Origin: a virus
Taxonomy: Duplodnaviria > Heunggongvirae > Uroviricota > Caudoviricetes
Virus record (IMG/VR): IMGVR_UViG_3300033146_004404
Coordinates: 1-64,000 of that record
Direction: 5' to 3' (one strand)
DNA length: 64,000 bases
A model generated the notes under the pieces. That model was not told the origin of the DNA, did no database searches, and worked only from the letters and a program-made list of their open reading frames with translations. The position numbers were made by a program, and so were the translations under genes. This document shows positions 7,335 to 61,592 of this stretch, piece by piece; position 1 is the first letter of the stretch, and every line of letters starts with the position of its first letter.

Positions 7335-7366
7335 ATAAAGGAGCCAATTTGGCTCCTTTATTTTTA
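7335..7366. terminator. bidirectional terminator between convergent genes
   Basis: aataaaggagccaa-tt-tggctcctttattttt; A-run and T-run flanks. Confidence 0.7.
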
Positions 7367-8377
7367 GTATGGGAAGTTAGTTAATCCAGTTACACTTACT
7401 TTATGGTACATTGAATTACCATCAGTAACTTTTGTTATTCCGTATCTATTAAAGATAGCTAATTTACTTGAAAAGTTATCAGCATCTGTTTCTAATAAAC
7501 CAGTCATAACTTGATATGGTGAATAAATAATTCCGCTGCTGATATTTCCTTGACATTTTTTACCAACATACATGTCGTATGTTGTAGAGTCAAATGTATT
7601 AACATAAACATCAAGGTAATCTAATTTACCTATTTTGCTTAATACACCAAATTTTGGTTCTGGGCCAGCTACGAAGCCAGGCATTGAAACAACAACCTGA
7701 GCTAAAGTAGTTGGAACGATAACATAATTAGCAAGACCTTTTTTGGTTGCTGTTGCTATGTTTCCTGAAGCTGCCATTATTGCGGTTTTTAATTCATAGA
7801 GTTTGCTTAAGAATGTTTGTGTTGCTTTATCATAAGACCAAGGATACTCTATTGCTGTATGAAAATCTGAGTGTTCTTTTATTGCTTTCAGTACATCATA
7901 ATCAATACCAGAAGCTATTGCAACACCAACGGCAGCAGCTCTTTCTTTATCTAAATTGAACTTCAAAATTTTTAAATCTTGAGCGAGTTCTTTTGTGTAA
8001 TTAAGTAAAGCTTTTCTTGACTTAGCAACGACAATGCTCTCTCTTAATTTTAGAACGATGTTTGGAATGTCAGCATTTTCAGCAGTAGCAGAAAATGCTT
8101 CATCAAACGCAGCGCCTACTTTCAGGCCAGACAAAACATTTCCAGCTCCGTCTTCAACATCAAGGCCATATACTCTTCCTTCCTTAAAACTGACTGGCTG
8201 AGTATCTACCAAGTCTTTACTAGCTATATTTTCTTGAGTAAAGAAAATAAGCGGCTCTATTAGTTCTGGATGAAAACTACTGTTTGATGAAACTGTTCCA
8301 GCTTCATTTAAAGAGTTTTCAAGGATAGCTGAAGCTATCATTTTATCGCTTTCATTTAATTCATTAAAATATTTCAT
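7364..8377 (-). CDS. hypothetical protein (possibly structural or capsid-like)
   Basis: 337-aa ORF on the opposite strand with an AGGAGA RBS; converges on a bidirectional terminator at 7335-7366. No motif recognised. Confidence 0.4.
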   Translation of the reverse strand: MKYFNELNESDKMIASAILENSLNEAGTVSSNSSFHPELIEPLIFFTQENIASKDLVDTQPVSFKEGRVYGLDVEDGAGNVLSGLKVGAAFDEAFSATAENADIPNIVLKLRESIVVAKSRKALLNYTKELAQDLKILKFNLDKERAAAVGVAIASGIDYDVLKAIKEHSDFHTAIEYPWSYDKATQTFLSKLYELKTAIMAASGNIATATKKGLANYVIVPTTLAQVVVSMPGFVAGPEPKFGVLSKIGKLDYLDVYVNTFDSTTYDMYVGKKCQGNISSGIIYSPYQVMTGLLETDADNFSSKLAIFNRYGITKVTDGNSMYHKVSVTGLTNFPY

Positions 8378-17035: not shown

Positions 17036-17779
17036 ATGAGTTTTGAAAAAGCAAAAAGAATCGCACAGATTCTACAAGATAACGGATTCAAAGCTGTCTT
17101 TGCTGGCGGTGCTGTTCGGGATATGGTTCTTGGCGTCGAGCCACATGATTTCGATGTGGCAACTTCAGCAAGACCTGAAGATGTTAAAAGAATTTTTATC
17201 AACTCTAGTTTTGTAGGCGAAAGTTTTGGTGTATCACTTGTTGAAGGCATTGAAGTCGCATCATTTAGAATTGATAAAAGTCAGGTTGATGGTAGAAAAC
17301 CAAACAGTATTGAATTTGCTTCAATGGAAGAGGATTCAAAACGCAGAGACCTGACAATCAATGCTCTGTTCTGGGATCCGATTAGTGAAGAATTCTTTGA
17401 CTTTGTTGGTGGAATGAAAGACATCGAAGAAAAAATAATAAGATTTGTTGGTGATCCAATTAAAAGAATAGAAGAAGATAACTTGAGAATAATGAGAGCT
17501 ATCAGATTTGCTCATAAGTTGAACTTTACTCTTAGCAAGAGTACTACTCTTGCGATTGTTAATAATGCTGAAAAAGTAAAGAGTCTGTCAGGTGATAGAA
17601 TTCTTGAAGAACTAAAGAAGGGTATTGTCTTAGATAAACCTTCTAAGTTTATTTCTCTCTTGTTTTCACTTGGTATTTTGAGACATATTCTTCCTGAAAT
17701 AACTGATCTTTCAGGTTGCGAACAACATATAAAATGGCACCCAGAAGGTGCAACAGCTCAAAAGATTATTTGTGACTAA
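17036..17779 (+). CDS. cca: tRNA nucleotidyltransferase (CCA-adding enzyme), N-terminal head/neck fragment
   Basis: 'GGAVRDMVLGVEPHDFDVAT' class-II nucleotidyltransferase signature and 'RRDLTINAL'. Ends '...WHPEG' followed by a short tail, then stop. Confidence 0.75.
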   Translation: MSFEKAKRIAQILQDNGFKAVFAGGAVRDMVLGVEPHDFDVATSARPEDVKRIFINSSFVGESFGVSLVEGIEVASFRIDKSQVDGRKPNSIEFASMEEDSKRRDLTINALFWDPISEEFFDFVGGMKDIEEKIIRFVGDPIKRIEEDNLRIMRAIRFAHKLNFTLSKSTTLAIVNNAEKVKSLSGDRILEELKKGIVLDKPSKFISLLFSLGILRHILPEITDLSGCEQHIKWHPEGATAQKIICD

Positions 17780-17840
17780 ATATCTGCAAAACAAAAAGTT
17801 GGCGTTGGAAAAATGCTTAACTTTTTTAACGGAGGACTGA

Positions 17841-18512
17841 GTGAAACTAGGAGAAAAAATTCCTTTAGATCCAAAAAATAAAGATCATTACGATAAAACA
17901 AAATATAAAATAACTCCAGGTGACGTTTTTGTTCATACAATGAAGGTTTTGGATAACATCGAATCAAAAGATTGGCGTGTTAGACTTGCTGCTTTATTTC
18001 ACGACATTGGCAAACCTGCAACTGCTGTTGATAAAGGTGAAGGTCGAATTTCAAACAAAGGTCATGATAAAGAAGGCGCAAAGATGGTTTTTGAAATTGG
18101 TAAAAGATTGTCTATGTCAAATGAAAACATTGCCTTAATTTCAAATCTAGTTAAGGATCATATGAACTTTAAAGAAGTTAAGAATATGAAAAGATCAACT
18201 CTTAGACGTTTTCTTTCTAAACCTCATATTGTTGAACTAATCGAACTTTCCAAAGCTGATAGTCTTGGTACTGATTTTGAGCACGATATGTCATTCATTG
18301 ACTTTGCAAAAAATCAGTTGAAAAATTTTGACGATTTGAATGAACCTGTTATGCCAGATCCTTTTGTTGATGGTCATGATTTGATTGCTATGGGCTTCAA
18401 GCCTAGTCCAAAATTTAAAGTTATGTTGGATAAAGTTATGGATTTGCAATTGGAAAATAAAATCAACAGTAAAGAAGAAGGAATCGATTTCATCGTAAAA
18501 AAATTTATTTGA
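17841..18512 (+). CDS. cca: CCA-adding enzyme C-terminal HD-domain fragment
   Basis: GTG start with GGAGGA RBS; 'PGDVFVHT' and 'LFHDIGKP' HD motifs. Continues the HPEG|DVxxHT motif that is split from the upstream ORF. Confidence 0.7.
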   Translation: MKLGEKIPLDPKNKDHYDKTKYKITPGDVFVHTMKVLDNIESKDWRVRLAALFHDIGKPATAVDKGEGRISNKGHDKEGAKMVFEIGKRLSMSNENIALISNLVKDHMNFKEVKNMKRSTLRRFLSKPHIVELIELSKADSLGTDFEHDMSFIDFAKNQLKNFDDLNEPVMPDPFVDGHDLIAMGFKPSPKFKVMLDKVMDLQLENKINSKEEGIDFIVKKFI

Positions 18513-20562: not shown

Positions 20563-21855
20563 ATGATTGAGGTTAAAGGAAGATACGGAACAGCTAAAGT
20601 TTTTAATGACGTAGTAGAAGAAACTGCGTTAGAACAAATTAAAGTCGTTATGAACCAAAAAATGGTCGATGGCGCAAAAGTTAGAATTATGAGTGATGTT
20701 CATGCAGGAGCAGGATGTGTTATAGGTTATACAGCAACTATGACAGATCGAGTCTGTGTAAATTTAATTGGCGTGGACATCGGTTGCGGAGTTCTTGCAT
20801 ACAAATTGACTAATAAAGTTATTGACTTCAAAAAGTTAGATAGAACTATTAAAGACAGAGTTCCTACTGGATTTAATATTCATTCAGAAATAAATTTGGA
20901 CTTTGTTGGCTCTTTAGGTTCTGAGATGGAAGTTTTTTACAAAAATGTCTTAAATGTTTGTAAAGAAACAAAACAAGATTATGATTATGCTATGAGATCA
21001 CTTGGAACTCTTGGTGACGGAAATCACTATATTGAAATTGATAAGAATATTGAAACAGGCGAATTGTATTTAATGATCCATACTGGGTCAAGAAAATTTG
21101 GTTTCAATGTAGCTAATCACTTTCAGAATCTTGCTGTAGAAAACTGTACTAATAAAGTTGATGTAGGAAAAATCAAAAATGACTTAATAACTTCTTATAG
21201 AGAAGCTGGAAAAGAAAAAGAAATACAGGCAGCATTAGCTGAAATAGATAGTAGGCTTTTTCCTTCTACGAGAACGGTCCCTGAAGGCATGGAATTTATT
21301 CAAGGGAAAGTACGAAAAGATTATTTACGTTCAATGATGGTCGCTCAGCGATACGCAGAACTAAATAGAGAATATATTGCCAGAATTATTTTGAAATATT
21401 CAGATTTATTTGCCTGTGAGAAGATTGAATCAGTTCATAACTATATAGACAGAGGACATGATTTTACTGGCAGTATTATTAGAAAAGGAGCTATTTCAGC
21501 ATTTAGAGGAGAAGAAGTTTTAATACCTTTGAATATGGCTGATGGAACTTTGCTTGGAACTGGTAAAGGAAATCCTGACTGGAATTTCTCTGCACCTCAC
21601 GGAGCAGGACGATTGATGAGTAGAAAGAAAGCAAGAAGGAACATTGACATAACAGACTATCAAGAAAGAATGAAAGATGTCTGGTCTTCTTGCGTAAATC
21701 TTTCAACTATTGATGAAGCTCCTATGGCTTATAAAAATGCTGATGAAATAAAAAAGTATATTGAGCCTACTGTATCAATCACAGCTCATTTGAAACCAGT
21801 TTATAATTTAAAGGCGAATGACTATATGAAAAGATGTTTATTTAAAGGCGAATGA
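20563..21855 (+). CDS. rtcB: RtcB RNA 3'-phosphate/5'-OH ligase
   Basis: 'MSDVHAGAGCVIG', 'GVDIGCG' and C-terminal 'APHGAGR' RtcB signatures. Confidence 0.85.
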   Translation: MIEVKGRYGTAKVFNDVVEETALEQIKVVMNQKMVDGAKVRIMSDVHAGAGCVIGYTATMTDRVCVNLIGVDIGCGVLAYKLTNKVIDFKKLDRTIKDRVPTGFNIHSEINLDFVGSLGSEMEVFYKNVLNVCKETKQDYDYAMRSLGTLGDGNHYIEIDKNIETGELYLMIHTGSRKFGFNVANHFQNLAVENCTNKVDVGKIKNDLITSYREAGKEKEIQAALAEIDSRLFPSTRTVPEGMEFIQGKVRKDYLRSMMVAQRYAELNREYIARIILKYSDLFACEKIESVHNYIDRGHDFTGSIIRKGAISAFRGEEVLIPLNMADGTLLGTGKGNPDWNFSAPHGAGRLMSRKKARRNIDITDYQERMKDVWSSCVNLSTIDEAPMAYKNADEIKKYIEPTVSITAHLKPVYNLKANDYMKRCLFKGE

Positions 21856-23118: not shown

Positions 23119-23163
23119 TAGACCGTTTGACACTAACAGCAATCAAATGAAGAAAAAACTGCA

Positions 23164-23199
23164 AATTTTAAGGTGTGGGTTCGATTCCCACTACGATTG
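23164..23199 (+). other. tRNA-like minihelix (acceptor stem plus T-arm only)
   Basis: aatttta-ag-gtggg-ttcgatt-cccac-tacgatt-g, with no D or anticodon arm. Confidence 0.35.
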
Positions 23200-24159: not shown

Positions 24160-24234
24160 CAGTGTGTGACGGGAAAGGCTTATCCGTGCTCCCCTGGAAG
24201 GAGGAAAATGTGGGTTCGAGTCCCACCTCACTGA
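24160..24234 (+). tRNA. tRNA, anticodon probably UGG (Pro)
   Basis: Acceptor cagtgtg/ctcactg, D-stem acgg/ccgt, anticodon loop cctggaa, T-arm gtggg-ttcgagt-cccac. Confidence 0.45.
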
Positions 24235-24414
24235 CTTTGGTAAATAGTGATAATAGAGAAATATCTCTTGGCACTGGAGAAAGTAATCTGGACGTAAGTC
24301 TTAATTCAATTCCGGAAAAAGAATTAGGATAAGAAGCGATGAAGAAATCGTAAAGGATCATACCCGAGTATAGGGAGACTGCAGGTTCGAATCCTGCGTT
24401 GCCAATATTTTAAT

Positions 24415-25697: not shown

Positions 25698-25726
25698 TTG
25701 ACAAAAAAAGAATAATATGGTATAAT
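25698..25726 (+). promoter_or_regulatory. consensus early promoter copy 14
   Basis: Identical core; precedes the small ORF and the Thr-Phe-Ala-Met-Asn tRNA array. Confidence 0.75.
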
Positions 25727-26460: not shown

Positions 26461-26534
26461 TTCCTTGAAGCTTATCTGGTAAAGCGCCAAATCGTTAATT
26501 TGGAGTCTTCTTGGTTCGAGTCCAAGCAGGGGAG
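26461..26534 (+). tRNA. tRNA, anticodon probably GUU (Asn)
   Basis: Acceptor ttccttg/cagggga (all paired including G-U), D-stem gctt/aagc, anticodon stem ccaaa/tttgg with loop tcGTTaa, T-arm cttgg-ttcgagt-ccaag. Confidence 0.5.
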
Positions 26535-26674: not shown

Positions 26675-27037
26675 ATGAATGAAGTGATAATGAAAAATAC
26701 TGAAATTAATTATGTAGTAAGAGATTCGATAAGAGAGTTAAAAAAGGATTTAAAGCTTTTATCTGTTAAGATTAGAGAATTTAAAAGAATTAGGGATACC
26801 TCTAAGAACATTGATGAAGTAGCCAGCTGTATGTCAGAGCTTGTAAATATAAGAGAATCTTATAGACTATGTCACATTCTTTACTGTTTAATAAGAGGTA
26901 GAAAATATCTGGAAGTTGAAAACAAGGTAGCTTATGGGAATAAGGGTTCTCTTTCAGCTTTGAAATGCAAATGCTTACAATATAATGGACTTGATCTTGA
27001 TAGTTGCACTGTCAAGCAACTAGAGGGGTTGAGATAA
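26675..27037 (+). CDS. hypothetical protein
   Basis: ORF with RBS (taggagaatgaaaag) then ATG. Confidence 0.45.
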   Translation: MNEVIMKNTEINYVVRDSIRELKKDLKLLSVKIREFKRIRDTSKNIDEVASCMSELVNIRESYRLCHILYCLIRGRKYLEVENKVAYGNKGSLSALKCKCLQYNGLDLDSCTVKQLEGLR

Positions 27038-27039
27038 AG

Positions 27040-27408
27040 ATGGTAAAACAAGTTATTATAGCGAGGACAGATTTAGATATGTCTTCTGGGAGGATGCCTT
27101 CACAGGTCGCTCACGCATCCATTGCAGTTTTTCTCGATATGGGAAAATGGGATGGAGATAATTTTACGTTGAAAAATGTCGATAAGGATATTCAGTATTG
27201 GATGAAAAAATCATTCACTAAGGTAGTTTTAAAAGTCCATAGTGAAGAAGAGTTGGTTAAACTTCAAGAGTTAGCTAAGGGATTAAAACTCCCGAGCGCA
27301 ATGATTGAAGACGATGTAATGGGTAGAGTTGAGAAAACTGCGCTCGCAATCGGGCCTGCTCTTGTTGAGGATATAGATGCTATAACAGGCAAACTATTCT
27401 TGTTTTAA
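27040..27408 (+). CDS. peptidyl-tRNA hydrolase, PTH2 family
   Basis: 'KQVIIARTDLDMSSGRMPSQVAHASIAVF' matches the PTH2 core (VxVVRTDLxMxxGKxAAQxxHA). Start chosen at ATG 27040 immediately after the upstream stop. Terminator at 27413-27432. Confidence 0.7.
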   Translation: MVKQVIIARTDLDMSSGRMPSQVAHASIAVFLDMGKWDGDNFTLKNVDKDIQYWMKKSFTKVVLKVHSEEELVKLQELAKGLKLPSAMIEDDVMGRVEKTALAIGPALVEDIDAITGKLFLF

Positions 27409-27412
27409 ATTT

Positions 27413-27432
27413 TTGGCCCTTCGGGGCCTTTT
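27413..27432 (+). terminator. rho-independent terminator
   Basis: ggccc-ttcg-gggcc-tttt after the PTH2 gene. Confidence 0.65.
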
Positions 27433-27434
27433 AT

Positions 27435-27507
27435 GTGTCTGTCGTATAATGGCTATTACGATGCCTTCTAAAAGCACCAGATCAGGGTTCGAATCCCTGC
27501 AGACACG
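27435..27507 (+). tRNA. tRNA with CUA anticodon (candidate amber suppressor)
   Basis: Perfect acceptor gtgtctg/cagacac, T-arm caggg-ttcgaat-ccctg, anticodon loop ttCTAaa with U33 and A37. The anticodon stem has terminal A-C/C-A mismatches. Confidence 0.4.
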
Positions 27508-27544: not shown

Positions 27545-27615
27545 GGCACAGTGAAATTGGTTTTCAAGCTAGGCTCATATCTTAGTTTCCGTGGGTTCGA
27601 TTCCCACCTGTGCTT
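27545..27615 (+). tRNA. tRNA with CAU anticodon
   Basis: Acceptor ggcacag/ctgtgct, anticodon stem ctagg/cttag with loop ctCATat, T-arm gtggg-ttcgatt-cccac. Atypical D-arm. Confidence 0.5.
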
Positions 27616-27617
27616 TT

Positions 27618-27689
27618 GCTGGGAGGGCGTTGGAGTCCCAGATCAGGTTCATAACCTGTTTCTTCGTCGGTTCGATTCCGTCCTCAGCT
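27618..27689 (+). tRNA. tRNA with CAU anticodon
   Basis: Acceptor gctggga/cctcagc, anticodon stem cagg/cctg with loop ttCATaa. T-arm carries a U-U mismatch. Confidence 0.45.
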
Positions 27690-27975
27690 ATAATGAGAAA
27701 ATCAAGTAACGAGAGAATTAACAGTGTAGCTTGGCTGTTCGACAGACCAAAATTCTCTCAGTTTTTTAAGAGGTATTTATGAAAGACACAAAAGTAACTA
27801 TGAGTAACTATGAATATTGATGAGTATAACAAATTAGTCAATATAATTGAAAAGACTTTAATATTTAAAGAGAATTTAAAGACTAAGCTTAAGGAAGCCA
27901 TTGTCTATAAAGAAAAAGAGATAAAATCAATGACTTTCTTTGAACTTATGAAAAGGTATCTAGCTAAATAAATCC

Positions 27976-28004
27976 TTGACAAAAAAAGAATAATATGGTA
28001 TAAT
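27976..28004 (+). promoter_or_regulatory. consensus early promoter copy 15
   Basis: Identical core; precedes 28023 and the Arg/Glu tRNAs. Confidence 0.75.
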
Positions 28005-28404: not shown

Positions 28405-28833
28405 ATGATCTTGAAAGAGTTAAAGAAACAGAAAATAATACTTAAGAAAACAAACCCAGTTAGATCTGGTGTTTTAGCGTCTCTTATAGCAGAGACTGAA
28501 AAAACAGCTAAAGTAGCTAAGAGAGAAGCTCTTCAGGAAGATGTTGAAAAAGCAGCAGCAATGCTTACAAAACAGTTACAGAAAACTGTTGATGAAGTTA
28601 AAGTTGGAGAAGTAGTTGAAGGCTATAAACTCGAGATTGCTGAGCTGAAAGATTTTATTCCAGAAACAGTAAATAGAGAGCTTACTACAGAAATGATCGA
28701 AGAAGTCTTAAAGGAATATCCTGAGCCTTCTATGAAGATTATGGGAAAGGTTATCAGTGAATTGAAGAAAAGATATGGTAATAAGATTGATATGGCGATT
28801 GCTTCGAAAGAAGTGAAAGCTCTATTGAGTTAA
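28405..28833 (+). CDS. YqeY / GatB C-terminal-domain-like protein
   Basis: C-terminal '...EEVLKEYPEPSMKIMGKVISELKKRYGNKIDMAIASKEVKALL' resembles the GatB_Yqey motif (E..P...MGKVMG.VM.K..G.ADG..V...V...L). Confidence 0.5.
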   Translation: MILKELKKQKIILKKTNPVRSGVLASLIAETEKTAKVAKREALQEDVEKAAAMLTKQLQKTVDEVKVGEVVEGYKLEIAELKDFIPETVNRELTTEMIEEVLKEYPEPSMKIMGKVISELKKRYGNKIDMAIASKEVKALLS

Positions 28834-30936: not shown

Positions 30937-31890
30937 ATGGATTTTAAAAGATGGTGTTCAATAGAGAATCATTACCAGACGGCTACTTTCAATCGCTGGA
31001 TTACAAAGCATCCAGAGGTAAATGGTGCCTCCTACAAAGTTACAGAAAAAATTCATGGTGCTAATTTTTCCATTTTGACTTCTCCTGATGGAACTTTAAA
31101 ATTTGCTTCACGAAACAACATTCTTGAAGAGACAGATAAGTTTTATGGATACAAAGAGATCATGTCTAAGTATCAGGATATTATTGACTTCTTACTTAAA
31201 GAGTCAAAAACAATGGGAGAGGAACTTCAGCTATACGGAGAGGTCTTTGGTGGATCAATCCAGAAAGGCGTATTTTACGGAAAAGAAAAACAGTTTCGTT
31301 GGTACTCTTTAAGAGTTAATGGAACTGTAATTGCTCCAATGGAATCAACTCTTAAACTTCAGGAAATCGGAGAACATGAAGCTCCTGTAATTGGTATTTT
31401 TACAATTAAAAAAGATTTACTTGAATTGATTGAAAGAATCGACACAAAATTTAATTCTAAGCTTACTCCTGTTGGCTATGCTGATGAGAATCTTTGTGAA
31501 GGTGTTGTAATTGTTCCTTATGAAAGGAATTTTTACAATCAGAATTCACTTCTTTTAATCAAGAAGAAGAATAATGAGTTCATAGACAAGCAGCGTAAGC
31601 CAAAAGTAATTAAGTCCATTCCTGAAAATATTCAGAATGTGTTTGCTAATTACTCCTCATTTGTCTGTGAGGTACGTACAAACGATTTGTTTTCTAAAGT
31701 TGGAGAATTTACTGAAATGAAAGAGATTTCAAAATTCGCCAAAGCTTATTTCGAAGACGTTGCAGTTGATTACGAAAAAGAATTTTTGACTGAATGGGAA
31801 GAGCTTTCTAAGGCAGATAAGCAAGCAGTCAAGAAGATGATCGGAACAAGAATTTTTATTGAACTGAAAGAGAGTTTGTCAAGAGCTTAA
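30937..31890 (+). CDS. RNA ligase, Rnl2-family nucleotidyltransferase
   Basis: 'IENHYQ' and 'EKIHGANFS' match the T4 Rnl2 N-terminus and motif I (ENHYN...KIHGTNFS). Confidence 0.7.
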   Translation: MDFKRWCSIENHYQTATFNRWITKHPEVNGASYKVTEKIHGANFSILTSPDGTLKFASRNNILEETDKFYGYKEIMSKYQDIIDFLLKESKTMGEELQLYGEVFGGSIQKGVFYGKEKQFRWYSLRVNGTVIAPMESTLKLQEIGEHEAPVIGIFTIKKDLLELIERIDTKFNSKLTPVGYADENLCEGVVIVPYERNFYNQNSLLLIKKKNNEFIDKQRKPKVIKSIPENIQNVFANYSSFVCEVRTNDLFSKVGEFTEMKEISKFAKAYFEDVAVDYEKEFLTEWEELSKADKQAVKKMIGTRIFIELKESLSRA

Positions 31891-32522: not shown

Positions 32523-32807
32523 GGGGCTGTAAAAGGTTTCGACTGGATGGTAAAGTTTGATCGGTGTTTTAAATTTTTATAGTTGACGAAACAGAAACTT
32601 ATTACGCACAGGTTGCGTAACTGACTCTTGCTTCATTTGTTCCTTCCGTGAAGTAAGAGAGAAAGGAAGGATAGTCTGTTTGTTATTCTCTGACGATAAA
32701 CAAGTAATAACAAGAGGTTTTATTATTGATGATTTCCTTTTAAAAAACAATCTTTCAACAGATCAAAATAGTCATACAGGACGAGGGTCCGATTCCCTCC
32801 AGCTCCA
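32523..32807 (+). ncRNA. ssrA: tmRNA (SsrA), CCA not encoded
   Basis: 5' 'ggggctgtaaaaggtttcgactgg' parallels E. coli ssrA 'ggggctgattctggattcgacggg'. 3' 'caggacgagggtccgattccctccagctcca' parallels 'cggacgcgggttcaactcccgccagctcca'. Acceptor has G3:U70. Internal 'ttatagtt|GAC GAA ACA GAA ACT TAT TAC GCA CAG GTT GCG TAA' gives tag (A)DETETYYAQVA, analogous to 'aatagtc|GCA...ANDENYALAA'. Terminator at 32851-32885. Confidence 0.7.
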
Positions 32808-32850
32808 TTTAGTTTTTTGTTGGTGTAGAGGTTCATGACACAAACCCTGA

Positions 32851-47610: not shown

Positions 47611-49560
47611 TTATTCGTCTAGTGAAGCACCAGACTTATGAACCTGCATTGTAATCTCTATAATTTCAATTGTGTTCATAGGAATTATTTTAATAGTTCC
47701 TTTCATTATGTTCTGTGCTATTACGTCAGCTGTATTTACAGTGTCGTCGATAATAACGCTATACTTATCAATACCACCAGCCTGTCTAATAGGTTCGAGA
47801 ATTGCAGTAACTAAGTTAGATGCTTTTCTCCAAGAATCAGGATTATGTGGTTCAAAAATCATTCCCTCAAGGGAAACTTTGATTAACTTTTTAGCAAAGA
47901 TTATCATTCTTCGAACATTAAGTCTATTTAAAGAAGTGTTAGTCCGTACAAGAGTCTTTTGACCATAAACTTCAATACCTTTCGATACGAAATTAACGAT
48001 TGGGTTAACTGCATTGTAGTCACCATAAAGAATTTCTCTCTGTGCAAATGATGGTGATTTCTCATAATCAGCTGCTGTGATTTTTCCTCTAAGGTCACCT
48101 GCTGGTGCTGCCCATGGGCCATAAAGTCTATCTACTTCCATGAACTTTTCAGCCATGAAAACAGAAGGTGGACACCAAACATATTCTTTTGTATCAGTGT
48201 TATATTCTTTTAACCAACTCCAATAAAGAGTTCCATAAGATGAGTCGAGAGCAGTTGTTCTGCCGTGACCGCCAGTTCCATTATGCCAATCAGTTACTTC
48301 ATCATATTTAAGAGCAAATGGTGGATCTACTACATAGATAAAGTCTTTTCTAAATTCACACAATTCAAGAGCTTTATCTTGAACTGTTACTTCAGGCATA
48401 TCAGGTGCGATAAGGATATGGAAATCAAATGCTTCCATATTTCCAAGTTCTGCAGTTGTTTCAAGTTCTGCTATAAATAGAGCTTCATTTGCGCCTTCTG
48501 ACGCAGATGCATCATATCCATCAAGACCTAATACAAAATCATAAGCATCAAGAGTATCAGTTGTTGTGAAAGCAGTATCTCCAGATCCTAATGTATAAGT
48601 TCCATTCTGGAAATCTGTATTTAAAGCATCTGCAGTTAATCCTTCAAGAACGGTAAAACTTACATAATCTGATCCGCCATTATCTGGGTCAGCATTAACT
48701 ACTGTTGCAAAATACTCTGCATCAGCTACTACTAAAGACACTTCGTCAAAAGTTTCTTTTAATACTCCATCGTAATACACTTCAATCTTATGAACTGCTG
48801 CTCCAGATACAGGATTTGTTCTTGAAGTTTTAACTACTGAAATTAAGTTAGTAGAAGAGCCTTTTTCAAGAGATTTAATTTTAATATGATCTGTCTGAGC
48901 TTCACTTGAAGTTCCAGCTATTGCAGGAACTGTTGCCACTCCGTCAGTTCCAATAAGATTAGTTCCGCCAGTTCCTGCTTCAATTAAAACAGTACTTTCA
49001 GTTCCCATAGTTCCAGATGTAATTGTAATTACATCTGTTTCTAAAACAGATGTTGCACCAGTTCCTTCAATTAAAAGAGCTGCGTCGATTGCAGTTTTAA
49101 TCTCTGCGACTGTCATAGAAGTTGACGTAGAAGTTGCAGTTGCAGTAACTGTAGTTCCATCATCAATTGTAATATCTAATGTATAATCTGTTGCGTCTGC
49201 TACAGTAATTGTAGTACCGCCTACATCAAGGCCCATAGTTCCTGCTGTTACAGGAGCTAAATTATGAACGATAACTTCAGCTTCAATTGCTGCGTTATCT
49301 CCGGTTGCTGTTGCCACTCTATCGAAAATTATTTTATTTCCCTGATTGAATGCTCTATAAGCTGCTAATGCGGCATAAGGTGATCCAGTCACAGTTGTGC
49401 CAAAAATCTCATTAAATTCTGAACGTGATGTTACTAGAGTTGGTTCTCCAATAGGTCCTTTGGTAGCATATCCAACTATCGCAAGTACCGTATCAGAAGA
49501 AGTTACTGTATAAGCAGACATATCACTTTCTAAAATTGTAATACTAGGTGATTTAGCCAT
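47611..49560 (-). CDS. contractile tail sheath protein
   Basis: N-terminus 'SPSITILESDMSAY...LAIVGYATKGPIGEPTLVTSRSEFNEIFG', and a C-terminal domain '...LNRLNVRRMIIFAKKLIKVSLEGMIFEPHNPDSWRKASNLVTAILEPIRQAGGI...' typical of gp18/FI sheath proteins. GGAGGA RBS. Confidence 0.85.
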   Translation of the reverse strand: MAKSPSITILESDMSAYTVTSSDTVLAIVGYATKGPIGEPTLVTSRSEFNEIFGTTVTGSPYAALAAYRAFNQGNKIIFDRVATATGDNAAIEAEVIVHNLAPVTAGTMGLDVGGTTITVADATDYTLDITIDDGTTVTATATSTSTSMTVAEIKTAIDAALLIEGTGATSVLETDVITITSGTMGTESTVLIEAGTGGTNLIGTDGVATVPAIAGTSSEAQTDHIKIKSLEKGSSTNLISVVKTSRTNPVSGAAVHKIEVYYDGVLKETFDEVSLVVADAEYFATVVNADPDNGGSDYVSFTVLEGLTADALNTDFQNGTYTLGSGDTAFTTTDTLDAYDFVLGLDGYDASASEGANEALFIAELETTAELGNMEAFDFHILIAPDMPEVTVQDKALELCEFRKDFIYVVDPPFALKYDEVTDWHNGTGGHGRTTALDSSYGTLYWSWLKEYNTDTKEYVWCPPSVFMAEKFMEVDRLYGPWAAPAGDLRGKITAADYEKSPSFAQREILYGDYNAVNPIVNFVSKGIEVYGQKTLVRTNTSLNRLNVRRMIIFAKKLIKVSLEGMIFEPHNPDSWRKASNLVTAILEPIRQAGGIDKYSVIIDDTVNTADVIAQNIMKGTIKIIPMNTIEIIEITMQVHKSGASLDE

Positions 49561-49614: not shown

Positions 49615-49773
49615 TTACTTCTTTGTTATTTTAATAAATAACAATCCTTTCTTTTCTAAATTAATCATTTGGTTAGTTTTTTCCTCAACCAATATATAAC
49701 TTCTCTGTGGAATTGTCTTACCTATTAATCTAATAGGTTGGTATGTTTTGTTAAAAATCTTATATTCAGCCAT
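49615..49773 (-). CDS. small hypothetical protein (52 aa)
   Basis: Minus-strand ORF with GGAGAAAG RBS, between the sheath gene and the upstream gene. Confidence 0.3.
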   Translation of the reverse strand: MAEYKIFNKTYQPIRLIGKTIPQRSYILVEEKTNQMINLEKKGLLFIKITKK

Positions 49774-49782
49774 TACTTTCTC

Positions 49783-50394
49783 CTATATATCGAAAACTGT
49801 ATCGATAGAAAGAATCCTTCCATAATATTCTTCGTGATTTAGAGGCAAATAAGCTCTAGGCACTACTATGTCAAATCCGTATCGAATTGATACATCTCTA
49901 GCATCTCCAGGGTCTAGCGTACTTTCTGATTGAGGTGTTTTAACTTCAATTTCCATCCATTGTCCATCAACGTTAGCAGCGTATTTTCTATTATTTGGTG
50001 CTGATGACATTGCCTGATATAATAATATATCAGCATCTGATTGTTTCGCTGTCCACATTGTAACTCTATATGTTAATGTGTACACTAAAGGGTGTATTTG
50101 CTCCTCAAAAACATTTTCGTTTGTCTGTGATTGAACATACTTCTTGAAATAACCACTAGGAGTTTGTCCAGCCGCTGGTTCCATACTTTGTAATACGACA
50201 GTTATAGTTGGAAATAAATTACTTCCATTTATTAATGGTGCTATGAGTTTAGCGAATGCCCTTTCTGGGGTTGCATAAAACACATCTACATTTGTTTCTT
50301 CTGGATATTTACTTAGCCACATATTATCCTTTAAGAACTTTTTAACTTCTATAGATTGTTGTTTAAATAAAAAATGTTCAACTAAATTTGGCAT
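49783..50394 (-). CDS. virion morphogenesis protein (unassigned)
   Basis: In the minus-strand operon with the sheath gene, with tightly coupled starts and stops. Confidence 0.4.
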   Translation of the reverse strand: MPNLVEHFLFKQQSIEVKKFLKDNMWLSKYPEETNVDVFYATPERAFAKLIAPLINGSNLFPTITVVLQSMEPAAGQTPSGYFKKYVQSQTNENVFEEQIHPLVYTLTYRVTMWTAKQSDADILLYQAMSSAPNNRKYAANVDGQWMEIEVKTPQSESTLDPGDARDVSIRYGFDIVVPRAYLPLNHEEYYGRILSIDTVFDI

Positions 50395-51257: not shown

Positions 51258-52052
51258 CTACTCCATGTCTATTTTATTTAGACCATAACTACTTTTCTTG
51301 ATCTGGTCTATGTAGTTTCCAGGAAGGTTAAATCGATCAGGAGAAGCTAATTCCAACTGAAGGAACCACAACGTGTAATTCCAACCAAAATCTCCAGCTG
51401 GCTTAGACTCATTTATCTCATAAAGTCTATTTCTCTCAGTTAGCAAAACATCACCGACTTCTATAATATCAGTAATGTTTTCATATGTGTGATCAATTGA
51501 GTATATCTCAATTGATCTATTTACAAACGATGTCTTATTAAATTCTATTAAGTTTATACTTAAATCATTCTTTCCAGTAAATGAAGAAGACCATCCGTCC
51601 ATAGCATTAATCTTCTGAGTTACTTTTCTTACTGAACTGTTATCTGTTGATGAAAGAGCTAGCGATAGCACAACAACATTATTAACATAAAAATTCATTA
51701 CATTATTTAACTTCTCAAGTTTTGAAATTCCACGTCCAGTAAAATTTATTGTTAGAGTGCAAGCATTTTTGTTCTTTAACTCAGTAATAGTAGAAACCAT
51801 ATTGTTAAAATTTATGTGCATTTCAAGCTCTTCTTCTTTCTCGGCGATTCCACCAGAATCTAAAAAGCCAACCCATTTATTTGCATTGTAAATACTTCTT
51901 ATTTCAAAAGGAGGTAAGTAAATCCTGCCGGTTTTAGCTTCGCCATAAAATTCGTCTAGCTGAGTAGCTGTTTTGTCCATTTTAAAAATTTTTACTTTTG
52001 GCCCTACTAAATCTATATAAGATTTTGACATGTAGTTAATCCACTCTTGCAT
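51258..52052 (-). CDS. hypothetical protein (structural module)
   Basis: ORF in the operon. Confidence 0.4.
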   Translation of the reverse strand: MQEWINYMSKSYIDLVGPKVKIFKMDKTATQLDEFYGEAKTGRIYLPPFEIRSIYNANKWVGFLDSGGIAEKEEELEMHINFNNMVSTITELKNKNACTLTINFTGRGISKLEKLNNVMNFYVNNVVVLSLALSSTDNSSVRKVTQKINAMDGWSSSFTGKNDLSINLIEFNKTSFVNRSIEIYSIDHTYENITDIIEVGDVLLTERNRLYEINESKPAGDFGWNYTLWFLQLELASPDRFNLPGNYIDQIKKSSYGLNKIDME

Positions 52053-59658: not shown

Positions 59659-61398
59659 ATGAGAGAAATGAAAAAAAATTTTTTAGACAAAGGCTGGGTT
59701 TGCTTAGTTGATAAAATGGGAGACGACTATAGAATTTTACAGTCAGCAAGAGTTTCTACAGGTGGAGAAGCTTCAAAGGGAGATAAAGCAGATAGAGGAT
59801 TGATTCGATATTTGTATAAAAATAAACATTGCTATGACGATAAAACAGAGATTATGACAGAAAAAGGATTTATTTTATTTAAAGAGTTGAAAGATGAAAA
59901 AGTGGCCACTTTTTCAACAGACTCTTCAAAGTTTTTAAGGTATGAAACACCAAAAGAAAAAATAATTGATAACTACAGCGGAGAAATGTATCATTTTGAC
60001 GGAGATGTTGATTTATGCGTATCTCCAAACCATAAAATTTATTTTAGGAAAGCAAGAGATAAGAAATCAACATATCATTTTGATTTTGCTGCAGGAGAGG
60101 ATTCTTACAATAACCCTAAGAAGATAAAGAATGCTGAAGCACACATAAAAATGAAAAAATCTTCTTCTGGGAGTATTGTTAACTTTAAAGAAAGAGAAAT
60201 GTTTGGAATGGACATAATAAACTTTTCAAAGATTATAGGGTTTTTCATTGGAGAAGGGAACTCTAATTCAAAAAACACTATTGGGTTTCATCTAAAGAAA
60301 AAAAGAAAAATAAAATTTTTAAAAGATATAACGCTAAACTCTAATGTTGAATTAAGAAAATTAAAGAATGATGTTTATATATTTGATTTTCTTAATATAA
60401 AAGAATGGATTGATGAAAACTGCTATGATGAAAATAGAAATAAAAAGATTCCAGAGTTTTATTTCTATGAAAGCAGCATGGTTATTGATGCTCTCTTTGA
60501 AGGATTAAGGAATTCAAATGGATCTAACAAAAGAAGCACTTGGATATATTCTACAACCTCAAAAAAATTAGCTAATCAGTTACAAGCTATAGGTTCCATA
60601 AATGGAAGAACTATAACGCTAAATAGTTCAAGTGATTATTTATATATATTAAATTTTTCCACAAGAAGAGTTGAGGCAAATGTGAATGATAGTAGAGGAG
60701 GAAGTAATTTAAACATTATAAACTATACTGGAAATATATATTCAGTTACAGTTTCTACAGGTTTAATTATGGTTAGAAGAAATAGAAAAATAGTTCTTTC
60801 TGGAAATTCAACACCTTTCGAACAAGTAGTGTTTACGTTTCATTGTAAGATACCAAACTTTGTGGCAACTCATCTTTTACGTCATAGAACTTTTTCATTT
60901 AATATGATTTCACAGAGATATAGTCAAATTAAAGATGATTACTATATCCCTAAAGAGTGGAGAGCTCAGGGAATAACTAATCACCAAGGAAGCGGAGAGA
61001 AATTCGAAAGCGATGAAAACATTCGTTTGCAGAATGAATACGTTAACGAAATAGAAAATTCGTTTTTAAACTATAATGAAATGATAGAAACAAAAGTAGC
61101 AAAAGAAATGGCTAGATTGGTTCTACCTTCTTCAGTATATACAGAGTTATATTTTACTGTAGATTATCGAAATCTTTTACATTTTCTTGAATTAAGACTT
61201 CACGAACATGCGCAATTTGAGACAAGGGTTTTTGCTGAAGCAATAGAGTCTATATTAAATGAAATAGATGGATTAAAATGGTCAATGGAAATCTTCAAAG
61301 AAGACACAGAGCTTCAGTGGAAGATTCAAAAACTTCTTTCCTCAAAGAAAGAACCGGCAACAATACTAAAAGCTCTTGAAGAAGCTTTTGGAATATAG
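59659..61398 (+). CDS. thyX: flavin-dependent thymidylate synthase ThyX, interrupted by an intein
   Basis: Exteins: 'DKGWVCLVDKMGDDYRILQSARVS...RGLIRYLYKNKH' and 'STPFEQVVFTFHCKIPNFVATHLLRHRTFSFNMISQRYS' (ThyX RHRx7S motif). Between KH and STPFEQ lies an insert of about 326 aa starting with Cys and ending in Asn. Confidence 0.8.
   Translation: MREMKKNFLDKGWVCLVDKMGDDYRILQSARVSTGGEASKGDKADRGLIRYLYKNKHCYDDKTEIMTEKGFILFKELKDEKVATFSTDSSKFLRYETPKEKIIDNYSGEMYHFDGDVDLCVSPNHKIYFRKARDKKSTYHFDFAAGEDSYNNPKKIKNAEAHIKMKKSSSGSIVNFKEREMFGMDIINFSKIIGFFIGEGNSNSKNTIGFHLKKKRKIKFLKDITLNSNVELRKLKNDVYIFDFLNIKEWIDENCYDENRNKKIPEFYFYESSMVIDALFEGLRNSNGSNKRSTWIYSTTSKKLANQLQAIGSINGRTITLNSSSDYLYILNFSTRRVEANVNDSRGGSNLNIINYTGNIYSVTVSTGLIMVRRNRKIVLSGNSTPFEQVVFTFHCKIPNFVATHLLRHRTFSFNMISQRYSQIKDDYYIPKEWRAQGITNHQGSGEKFESDENIRLQNEYVNEIENSFLNYNEMIETKVAKEMARLVLPSSVYTELYFTVDYRNLLHFLELRLHEHAQFETRVFAEAIESILNEIDGLKWSMEIFKEDTELQWKIQKLLSSKKEPATILKALEEAFGI
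59830..60807 (+). mobile_element. intein with LAGLIDADG homing-endonuclease domain inside thyX
   Basis: Begins 'CYDDKTEIMT' and ends '...VLSGN' before +1 Ser. Internal 'KIIGFFIGEGNS' and 'IDALFEGLRNSNGS' LAGLIDADG-like motifs. Confidence 0.65.
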
Positions 61399-61563
61399 GA
61401 GAAAATTATGTCAGCAACGGAATTAGCGTTTATTTTAATAATGGGCGGAACAGCTTTTTACTTGATGAACAGGTGGTGGTAGATGATAAGTGTTGGCTCA
61501 GCAATCACTGCAATTATTTTTTCTTTTATAGTTGCTTGGGTAATTTTAAAGATCTTTAAAAAT

Positions 61564-61592
61564 TTGACAAAAAAAGAATAATATGGTATAAT
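61564..61592 (+). promoter_or_regulatory. consensus early promoter copy 26
   Basis: Identical core; precedes the metallopeptidase-vWA gene. Confidence 0.75.

What the first reader, a model, noticed from the sequence alone, without database searches (positions are those of the whole stretch)
27435..27507. Candidate amber-suppressor tRNA (anticodon CUA)
A tRNA with perfect acceptor and T-arm has the anticodon loop ttCTAaa (U33, CUA, A37). CUA decodes UAG. The anticodon stem has A-C/C-A mismatches at both ends, so the call is uncertain. If real, it could signal stop-codon read-through or TAG recoding of some (late?) genes, as in certain large phages, or suppression of host nonsense-based defences. 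All long ORFs in this window are intact under standard code, so any recoding would lie elsewhere or be limited to read-through extensions.
Basis: inference. Interest (0 to 1): 0.6.

Follow-up and report, generated by a model that had tools for sequence, protein, structure and literature searches.

The report
Conserved phage amber-suppressor tRNA gene
This is a genuine phage tRNA gene whose anticodon reads the UAG stop codon, and relatives keep it next to a peptidyl-tRNA hydrolase gene, but the phage still uses UAG as an ordinary stop, so it joins the known cases of suppressor tRNAs in standard-code large phages whose targets are unknown.

Summary
Window 27435-27507 (+) is a tRNA gene: Rfam tRNA model 51 bits against a threshold of 29, and ARAGORN calls anticodon CUA. 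The loop is UUCUAAA.

It is not a chance hit or a decaying copy. Ten distinct related phage contigs carry a CUA tRNA 27-95 nt downstream of an orthologous PTH2 peptidyl-tRNA hydrolase gene. In an alignment of nine of these tRNAs, 15 of 21 stem pairs show compensatory changes and the anticodon is invariant.

The two annotated suppressor tRNAs of the cultured Xanthomonas phage XacN1 have the same two mismatches. Published work links mismatches at both positions to stronger or broader stop-codon decoding.

The recoding idea is not supported. TAG ends about 10% of ORFs in the window, including structural genes. Reading TAG as sense merges no ORFs. No conserved gene in the window or in relatives has an in-frame TAG.

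The window is part of a large T4-like myovirus with about 23 tRNAs, a tmRNA and RNA-repair genes.

Best reading: a working amber suppressor in a standard-code phage. Its inserted amino acid and its targets are unknown. It is a new member of a known kind, with a tight PTH2 linkage that I did not find reported.

The parts
27435..27507 (+). tRNA gene with anticodon CUA (amber suppressor). Type I, 73 nt, with a 5-nt variable loop and discriminator G73. No CCA is encoded; the next bases are ATA.
   Evidence: Sequence. ARAGORN. Rfam RF00005 at 51 bits. Covariation with 8 orthologues. Following bases.
27468..27470 (+). Anticodon CTA, inside the loop TTCTAAA (27466-27472).
   Evidence: The five loop columns U33-C34-U35-A36-A37 are invariant in alignment A3.
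27461..27477 (+). Anticodon arm with three Watson-Crick pairs (28-42, 29-41, 30-40) flanked by A27·C43 and C31·A39 mismatches.
   Evidence: Recurrence in the family is shown. XacN1 has the same architecture.
27040..27408 (+). PTH2-type peptidyl-tRNA hydrolase gene (122 aa from the ATG at 27040). It ends 26 nt before the tRNA.
   Evidence: Pfam PF01981 at E = 1.8e-26. Translation. Orthologues are followed by a CUA tRNA in 10 distinct contigs. Clade structure.
27415..27428 (+). GC-rich hairpin GGCCC-TTCG-GGGCC followed by TTTTAT, which ends one base before the tRNA 5' end. It may be a terminator or attenuator, or a 3' stabiliser of the PTH2 mRNA.
   Evidence: Terminator-like hit. A stable hairpin of different sequence sits in the same spacer in all 9 relatives examined.
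26675..27037 (+). Upstream gene of unknown function (120 aa, helical hairpin). Homologues directly precede PTH2 in 8 relatives.
   Evidence: No Pfam or PHROG hit. tblastn synteny. Family of about 50 representatives. AlphaFold model at pLDDT 94. No fold match.
25698..25726 (+). Perfect sigma-70 consensus promoter (TTGACA-17-TATAAT with TG). It is the nearest such promoter upstream of the unit that runs tRNA-Thr/Phe/Ala/Met, ORF, PTH2, tRNA-CUA, two tRNA-CAU. The next one is at 27976-28004.
   Evidence: This is a consensus scan only, so function is inferred.
27545..27691 (+). Two tRNA genes with anticodon CAT directly downstream (27545-27615 and 27616-27691). A CAT tRNA also follows the CUA tRNA in several relatives.
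   Evidence: The second is weak in Rfam at 18 bits.
17036..18512 (+). CCA-adding enzyme encoded as two ORFs: a nucleotidyltransferase head with RNA-binding domain (17036-17779) and an HD domain (17841-18512). It would supply the CCA end that the tRNA gene does not encode.
   Evidence: Pfam PolyA_pol, PolyA_pol_RNAbd and HD. The link to this particular tRNA is inference.

Best explanation
The locus is a functional, vertically conserved, phage-encoded amber-suppressor tRNA, tRNA(CUA). It sits in the host-type (sigma-70) promoter-driven tRNA and translation island of a large T4-like myovirus that otherwise uses the standard genetic code.

Proposed mechanism:
- The tRNA is transcribed with or just after the PTH2 gene.
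- It is cut out by host RNase P and 3' processing.
- It receives CCA from the phage CCA-adding enzyme.
- A host aminoacyl-tRNA synthetase that tolerates the CUA anticodon charges it. Gln or Lys is most likely by precedent.
- It competes with release factor 1 at UAG codons and gives partial read-through.

The unpaired 27·43 and 31·39 positions are a conserved property of this tRNA family, not damage. By analogy with published mutants, they probably tune suppressor efficiency or synthetase choice.

Shown here: it is a tRNA, the anticodon is CUA, the anticodon and cloverleaf are under purifying selection, the linkage to one PTH2 subfamily is conserved, and TAG is a normal stop in about 64 kb of this phage and about 100 kb of relatives.

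Inferred: expression, charging, the amino acid inserted, the degree of read-through, and the biological purpose. The most economical purpose is low-level or conditional UAG read-through, or the 'pre-recoding insurance' state proposed for standard-code relatives of recoded phages.
For: - tRNA model score and structure.
- Conservation: ten distinct contigs (PTH2 47-100% identical to the window's protein) have a CUA tRNA 27-95 nt after PTH2.
- Covariation in alignment A3: 92.6% of cells paired, 15 of 21 pairs with changes on both sides, 0 of 500 shuffles reach this, and slid controls give 32-48% paired. The loop columns U33-C34-U35-A36-A37 are invariant.
- Clade structure: in a neighbour-joining tree of about 154 phage PTH2 proteins, all 13 distinct PTH2 sequences (tree tips) with a CUA tRNA within 2 kb form one clade. 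Only one locus outside it has one.
- Mismatches recur: 31·39 is unpaired in 11 of 16 unique CUA tRNAs against 27 of 661 other phage tRNAs (Fisher p = 1.4e-11). Both positions are unpaired in 5 of 16 against 0 of 661. The XacN1 tRNA-Sup genes have the same A27·C43 and C31·A39.
- Literature on 27·43: a G27·A43 mismatch raised UAG read-through, and unpinning 27-43 let a CUA tRNA read UAA (PMC13092985 citing Komine & Inokuchi 1990 and Schultz & Yarus 1994).
- Literature on 31·39: an A·C mismatch at 31-39 makes yeast sup70-65 an efficient suppressor (PMC3664417). The 31-39 pair sets LysRS against GlnRS acceptance of amber suppressors, and C31 disfavours Lys (PMC1483225).
- Standard code.
- Precedent: XacN1 carries CUA suppressors in a standard-code genome with no identifiable targets (PMC5852040). 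Standard-code relatives of recoded phages acquire suppressor tRNAs (bioRxiv 10.1101/2021.08.26.457843).
- A CCA-adding enzyme is present.
Against: - There are no expression, charging or proteomic data.
- A terminator-like hairpin ends one base before the tRNA, so transcription into the tRNA may be limited.
- The isotype could not be assigned. An anticodon-masked profile classifier was only 66% accurate in cross-validation and gave inconsistent answers for the family.
- The closest homologue (L001) needs a bulged base, or two mismatches, in its acceptor stem.
- The mismatch enrichment is not phylogenetically independent and is not universal. Five of six further IMG/VR CUA tRNAs have fully paired stems, and related tRNA-Lys(CUU) genes also have a C31 mismatch.
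- Two thirds of the source genome were not available for inspection.
Confidence: 0.7

Rival explanations
1. The tRNA serves genuine TAG recoding (code 15-like, TAG to Gln) of a subset of genes, such as lysis or head genes, that lie outside the 64-kb window, as in crAss-like, Lak and other recoded phages.
For: Suppressor tRNAs correlate strongly with recoding in phages, and recoding concentrates in late and lysis genes. The genome is low in GC (33%) and TAG is the rarest stop, which fits the proposed path to recoding. About 137 kb of the 201-kb source contig could not be examined.
Against: The window already contains late genes: a gp23-like capsid protein, the tail sheath, an adaptor-like 815-aa protein, and an M23 peptidase or endolysin-like gene. 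All are intact, and two genes in the structural block end in TAG. Structural modules of three relatives align with no in-frame TAG. Candidate merged ORFs in other clade members are adjacent genes with their own start signals. No release-factor or synthetase homologue was found among the window ORFs of 200 aa or more that were scanned.
Confidence: 0.12
2. The loosened-stem tRNA(CUA), the PTH2 subfamily and the phage tmRNA act together as a termination-manipulating module. The tRNA would read UAG, and possibly UAA through C34·A wobble, on host and/or phage mRNAs. PTH2 and tmRNA would recycle the resulting dropped-off peptidyl-tRNAs and non-stop ribosomes. The purpose would be host takeover or counter-defence.
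For: PTH2 and tRNA(CUA) are strictly co-inherited within one PTH2 clade, while most other flanking genes differ between members. 27·43 and 31·39 are unpaired. Published mutants show that unpinning 27-43 in a CUA tRNA allows UAA reading. A phage tmRNA lies 5 kb away.
Against: Co-inheritance can be plain synteny within one phage lineage. TAA ends about 60% of the phage's own genes, so efficient UAA reading would be costly. 27·43 is paired (A-U or G·U) in 4 of 9 family members. PTH2 genes are common in tRNA islands of large phages without any CUA tRNA. There are no functional data.
Confidence: 0.1
3. The gene is a non-decoding or decaying tRNA. It could be a mutated paralogue (Glu, Gln or Lys-like) kept only as a processing signal or a decoy, and the weak anticodon stem would reflect loss of function.
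For: It has a three-pair anticodon stem and a U13·U22 mismatch. The L001 homologue has an acceptor-stem irregularity. A terminator-like hairpin lies immediately upstream.
Against: The anticodon and the U33 and A37 context are invariant across relatives whose PTH2 proteins are only 47-70% identical, while the stems change by compensatory substitutions. A pseudogene would not keep both. The acceptor and T arms are perfect, and the score of 51 bits is in the range of the window's other tRNAs.
Confidence: 0.06

Closest known systems
tRNA-Sup(CUA) genes of Xanthomonas jumbo phage XacN1 (AP018399.1, 36047-36122 and 36130-36205; PMC5852040)
   Same: Both are CUA tRNAs in a tRNA-rich large myovirus that uses the standard code. 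The XacN1 authors found no read-through targets. The anticodon-arm architecture is identical: A27·C43 and C31·A39 around three Watson-Crick pairs, with a CUCUAAA or UUCUAAA loop. XacN1 also encodes a PTH2 homologue (38.5% identity).
   Different: Body sequences differ. The XacN1 D arm is GCTCAGCGGTCAGAGC and its nearest GenBank phage tRNAs are annotated Lys. The window's D arm is GTATAATGGCTATTAC. XacN1 encodes CCA and has A73, while the window tRNA has G73 and no CCA. In XacN1 the PTH2 gene is about 138 kb from the suppressor tRNAs, not adjacent.
Suppressor tRNAs of TAG-recoded (code 15) phages: crAss-like, Lak, Garnet, Amethyst and others (bioRxiv 10.1101/2021.08.26.457843; PMC9523058)
   Same: These are also phage-encoded CUA tRNAs, produced from standard-code-compatible regions, in low-GC genomes where TAG is the rarest stop.
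   Different: [quoted passage not shown] Here none was found in the window or in relatives. The nearest state described in that work is the standard-code relative that has acquired a suppressor tRNA.
Laboratory amber suppressors with weakened anticodon stems: E. coli tRNA-Thr2(CUA) with G27·A43, Su7 tRNA-Trp(CUA) 27-43 mutants, yeast sup70-65 (A·C at 31-39)
   Same: The same two positions (27·43 and 31·39) are unpaired. In those systems the mismatch raised suppression or broadened decoding.
   Different: Those are engineered or selected mutants tested one position at a time. Here both mismatches occur naturally and together, and their effect is untested.
Short-anticodon-stem tRNA-Trp(CCA) that reads UGA (Blastocrithidia, Condylostoma, Ca. 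Zinderia; PMC13092985)
   Same: Both have an unpinned top pair of the anticodon stem and are associated with stop-codon decoding.
   Different: That tRNA keeps a sense anticodon and reads a near-cognate stop. This one is fully cognate to UAG and also lacks the bottom pair.

Membership tests
tRNA (Rfam RF00005) | Cloverleaf that scores above the curated gathering threshold of the covariance model | tested here: met
   51.0 bits against 29, full-length match over model positions 1-71.
tRNA (Rfam RF00005) | Stems supported by compensatory substitutions in homologues | tested here: met
   15 of 21 pairs have changes on both sides, 92.6% of cells are paired, and 0 of 500 shuffles reach this.
Amber suppressor tRNA | Anticodon 5'-CUA-3' at positions 34-36 of a 7-nt loop, with U33 and a purine at 37 | tested here: met
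   The loop is UUCUAAA. These columns are invariant in 9 homologues.
Amber suppressor tRNA | Is aminoacylated and inserts an amino acid at UAG in competition with RF1 | not testable with these tools
   Needs charging assays, a reporter or proteomics. Conservation of the anticodon is indirect support only.
tRNA-Pyl (the ARAGORN label) | Atypical structure: 6-bp anticodon stem, 3-nt variable loop, short D loop without GG, no T-psi-C consensus, one base between the acceptor and D stems | tested here: not met
   The window tRNA has two bases (UC) at positions 8-9, an 8-nt D loop with GG, a 5-position anticodon stem, a 5-nt variable loop and a TTCGAAT T loop. The ARAGORN label follows from the anticodon alone.
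tRNA-Pyl (the ARAGORN label) | Accompanied by pylS and pylBCD genes | tested here: not met
   No such domains appeared among the window ORFs that were scanned. Only the window was checked.
TAG-recoded (code 15) phage genome | In-frame TAG codons inside conserved genes, with ORFs that merge and coding density that rises when TAG is read as sense | tested here: not met
   Open stretches of 200 codons or more stay at 33. No in-frame TAG occurs in 69 tblastn alignments to relatives. This holds for the window and sampled relatives only.
TAG-recoded (code 15) phage genome | TAG not used as a terminator | tested here: not met
   TAG ends 15 of 97 ORFs, including 49783-50394(-) and 51258-52052(-) in the tail module. 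Orthologues keep TAG in 5 of 7 comparisons.
TAG-recoded (code 15) phage genome | Phage-encoded RF2 or a dedicated synthetase (seen in some members) | tested here: not met
   No RF or synthetase domain appeared among window ORFs of 200 aa or more scanned with Pfam or PHROGs. The rest of the genome was not seen.
Short-anticodon-stem read-through tRNAs | Top pair of the anticodon stem (27-43) unpaired | tested here: met
   The window has A27·C43. The position is unpaired in 5 of 9 family members.
Short-anticodon-stem read-through tRNAs | Enhanced or near-cognate stop decoding that depends on the short stem | not testable with these tools
   Needs reporters that compare the wild-type tRNA with variants in which the stem pairs are restored.

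The most novel reading that the evidence does not exclude
A distinct subfamily of phage PTH2 peptidyl-tRNA hydrolases has co-evolved with an amber-suppressor tRNA whose anticodon stem is deliberately loosened at 27·43 and 31·39. Together with the hairpin placed just before the tRNA and the phage tmRNA, they would form a dedicated device that rewrites translation termination during infection. The device would give efficient UAG (and perhaps UAA) read-through on host or phage messages, and PTH2 would clear the peptidyl-tRNA by-products. This would be more than a passive 'spare' suppressor.
Probability: 0.12. Interest if true: 0.75.

Novelty: new member of a known kind. Interest (0 to 1): 0.42.

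Why it matters
Phage-encoded suppressor tRNAs are how recoded phages switch the genetic code, but several standard-code jumbo phages also carry them and nobody knows why. This locus adds a well-supported lineage that is conserved across about ten uncultivated relatives.

It also offers two concrete handles that I did not find reported:
- an invariant pairing with one PTH2 hydrolase subfamily;
- an anticodon arm with exactly the two mismatches that laboratory genetics associates with stronger or broader stop-codon reading.

If these features prove functional, they would explain how a phage makes an efficient suppressor from a host-charged tRNA. They might also supply natural scaffolds for genetic-code-expansion tRNAs. 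If they do not, this remains one more orphan suppressor tRNA in a tRNA-rich phage.

Tried and rejected
- **Finding the source genome.** Exact-protein look-ups for PTH2 and the YqeY-like protein failed, although an identical PTH2 exists on a 201-kb JGI contig. The rest of the genome could therefore not be checked.
- **Nucleotide and protein searches of GenBank phages** with the tRNA region and the 815-aa protein found nothing.
- **Exact and degenerate tRNA patterns in IMG/VR** found nothing. A single-protein PTH2 scan of IMG/VR also found nothing. Only the alignment-based scan worked.
These were recovered one at a time by contig look-up.
- **Isotype assignment.** Nearest-neighbour identity and anticodon-masked nhmmer profiles (66% cross-validated accuracy) gave no consistent isotype. 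The initial impression of a tRNA-Glu(CUC) origin is not established.
- **HDV-like or theta ribozyme, or another RNA family, next to the tRNA.** No Rfam hit at E up to 1.
- **Read-through fusion proteins.** The 55-codon and 27+33-codon open stretches after two TAG stops are independent small genes. The frame relationship is not conserved in L170 and L171.
- **TAG-merged ORFs in clade members L009, L106 and L168** were rejected on inspection.
- **ORF120 as a clue to function.** It has no Pfam hit. The single-sequence model was poor. The alignment-based model was good but matched no solved fold. A distant member is not next to PTH2.
- **The idea that all phage CUA tRNAs have weakened stems** was rejected. 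Five of six further IMG/VR examples are fully paired.
- **A-to-I or C-to-U editing to repair the A·C mismatches.** I considered this, but other family members have C·C, U·U and G·A, which editing cannot repair.

Full report
**1. The observation**

The 73 bases at 27435-27507 (+) fold into a canonical cloverleaf.
- The acceptor stem has seven Watson-Crick pairs (GTGTCTG/CAGACAC).
- U8 and C9 follow, then a D arm with GG in its loop.
- The anticodon loop is UUCUAAA, with 7 nt.
- The variable loop has 5 nt, and the T arm is perfect (CAGGG-TTCGAAT-CCCTG).
- The discriminator is G73.

ARAGORN reports anticodon cta. It shifts the ends by one base and labels the gene 'Pyl' purely from the anticodon. 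The Rfam tRNA covariance model matches exactly 27435-27507 at 51 bits against a gathering score of 29. It marks three non-standard pairs: 13-22, 27-43 and 31-39.

**2. Context**

The window is a 33%-GC segment of a large myovirus that is only distantly related to sequenced phages.
- The tail sheath's best GenBank match is 35% identical.
- The 815-aa adaptor-like protein has no GenBank phage match.
- No nucleotide match was found.

The window encodes these proteins and RNAs:

| Feature | Coordinates |
|---|---|
| gp23-like capsid protein | 7364-8377 (-) |
| Tail sheath | 47611-49560 (-) |
| RtcB | 20563-21855 |
| RNA ligase 2 | 30937-31890 |
| Ro60/TROVE-like protein | 37031-38503 |
| CCA-adding enzyme, in two ORFs | 17036-18512 |
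| YqeY/GatB-tail-like protein | 28405-28833 |
| tmRNA | 32523-32810 |
| About 23 tRNA genes | across 23-42 kb |

The CUA tRNA lies 26 nt after a PTH2-type peptidyl-tRNA hydrolase gene (27040-27408; Pfam E = 1.8e-26). It is separated from that gene by a GC-rich hairpin and TTTTAT. Two tRNA(CAU) genes follow it. All of this lies between two perfect sigma-70 consensus promoters at 25698 and 27976.

**3. It is conserved, so it is real**

A protein search with PTH2 found an identical protein on a 201-kb JGI contig, presumably the source, plus homologues at 36-70% identity. Every close homologue whose contig could be fetched carries a CUA tRNA immediately downstream:
- L001/L002/L004 (66% identity), L005 and L163 (65-67%), L164 (63%), L165-167 (63%);
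- L168 (52%), L083 (52%), L003 (47%) and L106 (47%).

The gaps are 27-95 nt.

A neighbour-joining tree of about 154 phage PTH2 sequences puts all 13 distinct PTH2 sequences (tree tips) with a CUA tRNA within 2 kb into a single clade. Of the roughly 140 outside it, one has such a tRNA.

Nine of these tRNAs were aligned (A3). The result: 92.6% of stem cells are paired, 15 of 21 pairs have compensatory double changes, no shuffle out of 500 does as well, and register-shifted controls pair at 32-48%. The columns U33-C34-U35-A36-A37 are invariant.

A stem-loop of unrelated sequence occupies the PTH2-tRNA spacer in all nine. The upstream 120-aa ORF is also syntenic in eight.

**4. The mismatches**

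In A3 the three central anticodon-stem pairs covary and are always paired. In contrast, 27·43 is unpaired in 5 of 9 and 31·39 in 7 of 9.

Across all tRNAs called in the fetched loci:

| Position unpaired | CUA tRNAs (unique) | Other tRNAs | Fisher p |
|---|---|---|---|
| 31·39 | 11 of 16 | 27 of 661 | 1.4e-11 |
| 27·43 and 31·39 together | 5 of 16 | 0 of 661 | 3.7e-9 |

They are not corrected for shared ancestry.

Cultured phages show related patterns:
- The two annotated tRNA-Sup genes of phage XacN1 have the arm AGAGC-CUCUAAA-ACUCC. This is the same A27·C43 and C31·A39 pattern with different central pairs.
- Unannotated CUA tRNAs in Xanthomonas phage Xoo-sp13 and Synechococcus phage BUCT-ZZ01 also have weakened stems.

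The trait is not universal. Five of six further IMG/VR CUA tRNAs with the XacN1-type D arm are fully paired. Related tRNA-Lys(CUU) genes have a C31 mismatch too, so part of the pattern may be inherited.

Published experiments make the mismatches functionally plausible:
- G27·A43 increased UAG suppression by a CUA-mutated tRNA-Thr.
- Unpinning 27-43 let tRNA-Trp(CUA) read UAA (PMC13092985).
- An A·C mismatch at 31-39 makes yeast sup70-65 an efficient suppressor (PMC3664417).
- The 31-39 pair shifts amber suppressors between LysRS and GlnRS, and C31 disfavours lysine (PMC1483225).

**5. No sign of recoding**

In a greedy non-overlapping ORF set the stops are TAA 59, TGA 23 and TAG 15. Among ORFs of 100 aa or more they are 38, 15 and 6. 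Several of the short TAG 'ORFs' are antisense to tRNA genes.

Reading TAG as sense leaves the count of open stretches of 200 codons or more at 33. Post-stop extensions after TAG are not distinctive: the median is 15 codons, against 10 for TAA and 6.5 for TGA.

Two long post-TAG open stretches turned out to be small genes with their own AGGAG and ATG:
- The stretch after 49783-50394(-) is a conserved 52-aa ORF at 49615-49773(-). It is out of frame with the upstream gene in relatives L170 and L171.
- The stretch after the ThyX-fusion gene holds two hydrophobic mini-ORFs at 61408-61482 and 61483-61581.

tblastn of all window ORFs against relatives gave 69 alignments with no in-frame TAG. These relatives include the structural modules L169, L170 and L171, with sheath proteins 49-70% identical. 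The only internal stops were TAA codons at true C-termini. Apparent merges in L009, L106 and L168 are adjacent genes. No release factor or synthetase domain was found among the larger ORFs.

**6. What it most likely is and does**

It is a functional amber-suppressor tRNA maintained by selection in a clade of standard-code large phages. It is expressed from the early, host-type tRNA and translation island, completed by the phage CCA-adding enzyme and charged by a host synthetase.

Gln or Lys is the likeliest inserted amino acid by precedent. The identity could not be derived from the sequence.

The purpose is unknown. The closest documented situations are XacN1, which has CUA suppressors but no detectable targets (PMC5852040), and the 'suppressor acquired before recoding' state.

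The tight PTH2 linkage may be functional. PTH2 could recycle peptidyl-tRNA produced by read-through or drop-off. The linkage may also be simple inherited synteny. PTH2 genes are common in phage tRNA islands without CUA tRNAs.

**7. Comparison and novelty**

The locus meets the sequence-level definition of an amber suppressor tRNA. It fails the structural definition of tRNA-Pyl. The genome fails the definition of a TAG-recoded phage wherever it could be tested. It is therefore a new member of a known kind.

Three points appear unreported: the conserved PTH2-tRNA(CUA) pair, the conserved spacer hairpin, and the recurrent three-pair anticodon stem shared with XacN1. These lift interest above a routine tRNA call, but none has been shown to matter functionally.

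**8. Verdict**

- Observation: confirmed.
It is a suppressor tRNA, but recoding and read-through find no support.
- Interest: 0.42.

Noticed in passing
window 32523-32810 (+): Phage-encoded tmRNA (Rfam 72.9 bits). ARAGORN predicts the tag peptide DETETYYAQVA. It lies about 5 kb from the suppressor tRNA and PTH2.
   Followed up: no
window 22868, 24415, 25698, 27976, 30889, 32886 (+): Six perfect 12/12 sigma-70 consensus promoters (TTGACA, 17 nt, TATAAT, each with an upstream TG) punctuate the tRNA island. All face the same direction. 61 promoter-like sites were found against 38 expected.
   Followed up: no
window 17036-18512, 20563-21855, 30937-31890, 37031-38503, 39934-40356, 28405-28833: A dense RNA-repair and tRNA-maintenance toolkit: a CCA-adding enzyme split into two ORFs in different frames, RtcB, an Rnl2-like ligase, a Ro60/TROVE-like protein (DUF2828/DUF7788), a cREC_REC cyclic-phosphate receiver domain, and a YqeY/GatB-tail-like protein. 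XacN1 likewise carries an annotated glutamyl-tRNA amidotransferase alongside CUA suppressors.
   Followed up: partly
window 26675-27037 (+); homologues in L001, L163, L165, L083, L106, L168: A small protein family of unknown function with the conserved motif YRHxHIAYCLLRGxxYxEIE, about 50 representatives at 50% clustering. The alignment-based AlphaFold model is confident (pLDDT 94) and shows a long helical hairpin, but no solved structure matches. The gene sits directly upstream of PTH2 in this clade, often with an overlapping stop and start (ATGGTAA). A distant member (P0040) is not next to PTH2.
   Followed up: partly
window 49783-50394 (-) and orthologues in L169, L170, L171: The gene just upstream of the tail sheath ends in TAG in all four phages (42-77% aa identity). 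Overall, orthologues of TAG-terminated window genes keep TAG in 5 of 7 comparisons against 3 of 49 for other genes (Fisher p = 2.8e-4). Overlap with the next gene's Shine-Dalgarno sequence (TAGGAG) explains only some cases.
   Followed up: partly
window 49615-49773 (-): A conserved 52-aa ORF (MAEYKIFNKTYQPIRL...) lies between that gene and the tail sheath. It is present in all three relatives, and ORF lists with a 60-aa cut-off would miss it.
   Followed up: partly
window 61396-61581 (+): After the TAG stop of the 579-aa ThyX-fusion gene come two hydrophobic mini-ORFs (24 and 32 aa). Both are in the same frame as ThyX and are separated from each other by a second TAG. An amber suppressor would fuse all three.
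   Followed up: no
window 59659-61398 (+): ThyX (Thy1 domain at residues 376-535) is fused to an N-terminal region of about 370 aa with no Pfam match.
   Followed up: no
window 24160-24235, 23141-23199, 26461-26534 (+): Odd tRNA-like elements. ARAGORN gives one a 2-base 'anticodon'. One is a truncated 59-nt Rfam tRNA hit at 31.9 bits. One is an Rfam-only tRNA (47.5 bits) whose loop reads GTT (Asn) and which ARAGORN missed.
   Followed up: no
L029 (IMGVR_UViG_3300037086_000360, 250 kb): This clade member has two adjacent CUA tRNAs after PTH2. Its ORF statistics improve more when TGA, rather than TAG, is read as sense: median ORF length goes from 95 to 151 aa and coverage from 0.78 to 0.85. That hints at possible TGA recoding.
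   Followed up: no
L175 294-369 (Xanthomonas phage Xoo-sp13, MN047793.1) and L177 294-369 (Synechococcus phage BUCT-ZZ01, ON615601.1): CUA-anticodon tRNA genes that are not annotated in the GenBank records of two cultured phages. Both encode CCA and have weakened anticodon stems.
   Followed up: partly
L172 584-1033 (Pseudomonas phage Astolliot, OM982621.1): A gene annotated as tRNA-specific adenosine deaminase lies about 1.5 kb upstream of that phage's PTH2 homologue. I noted it because the window tRNA's two mismatches are both A·C.
   Followed up: no
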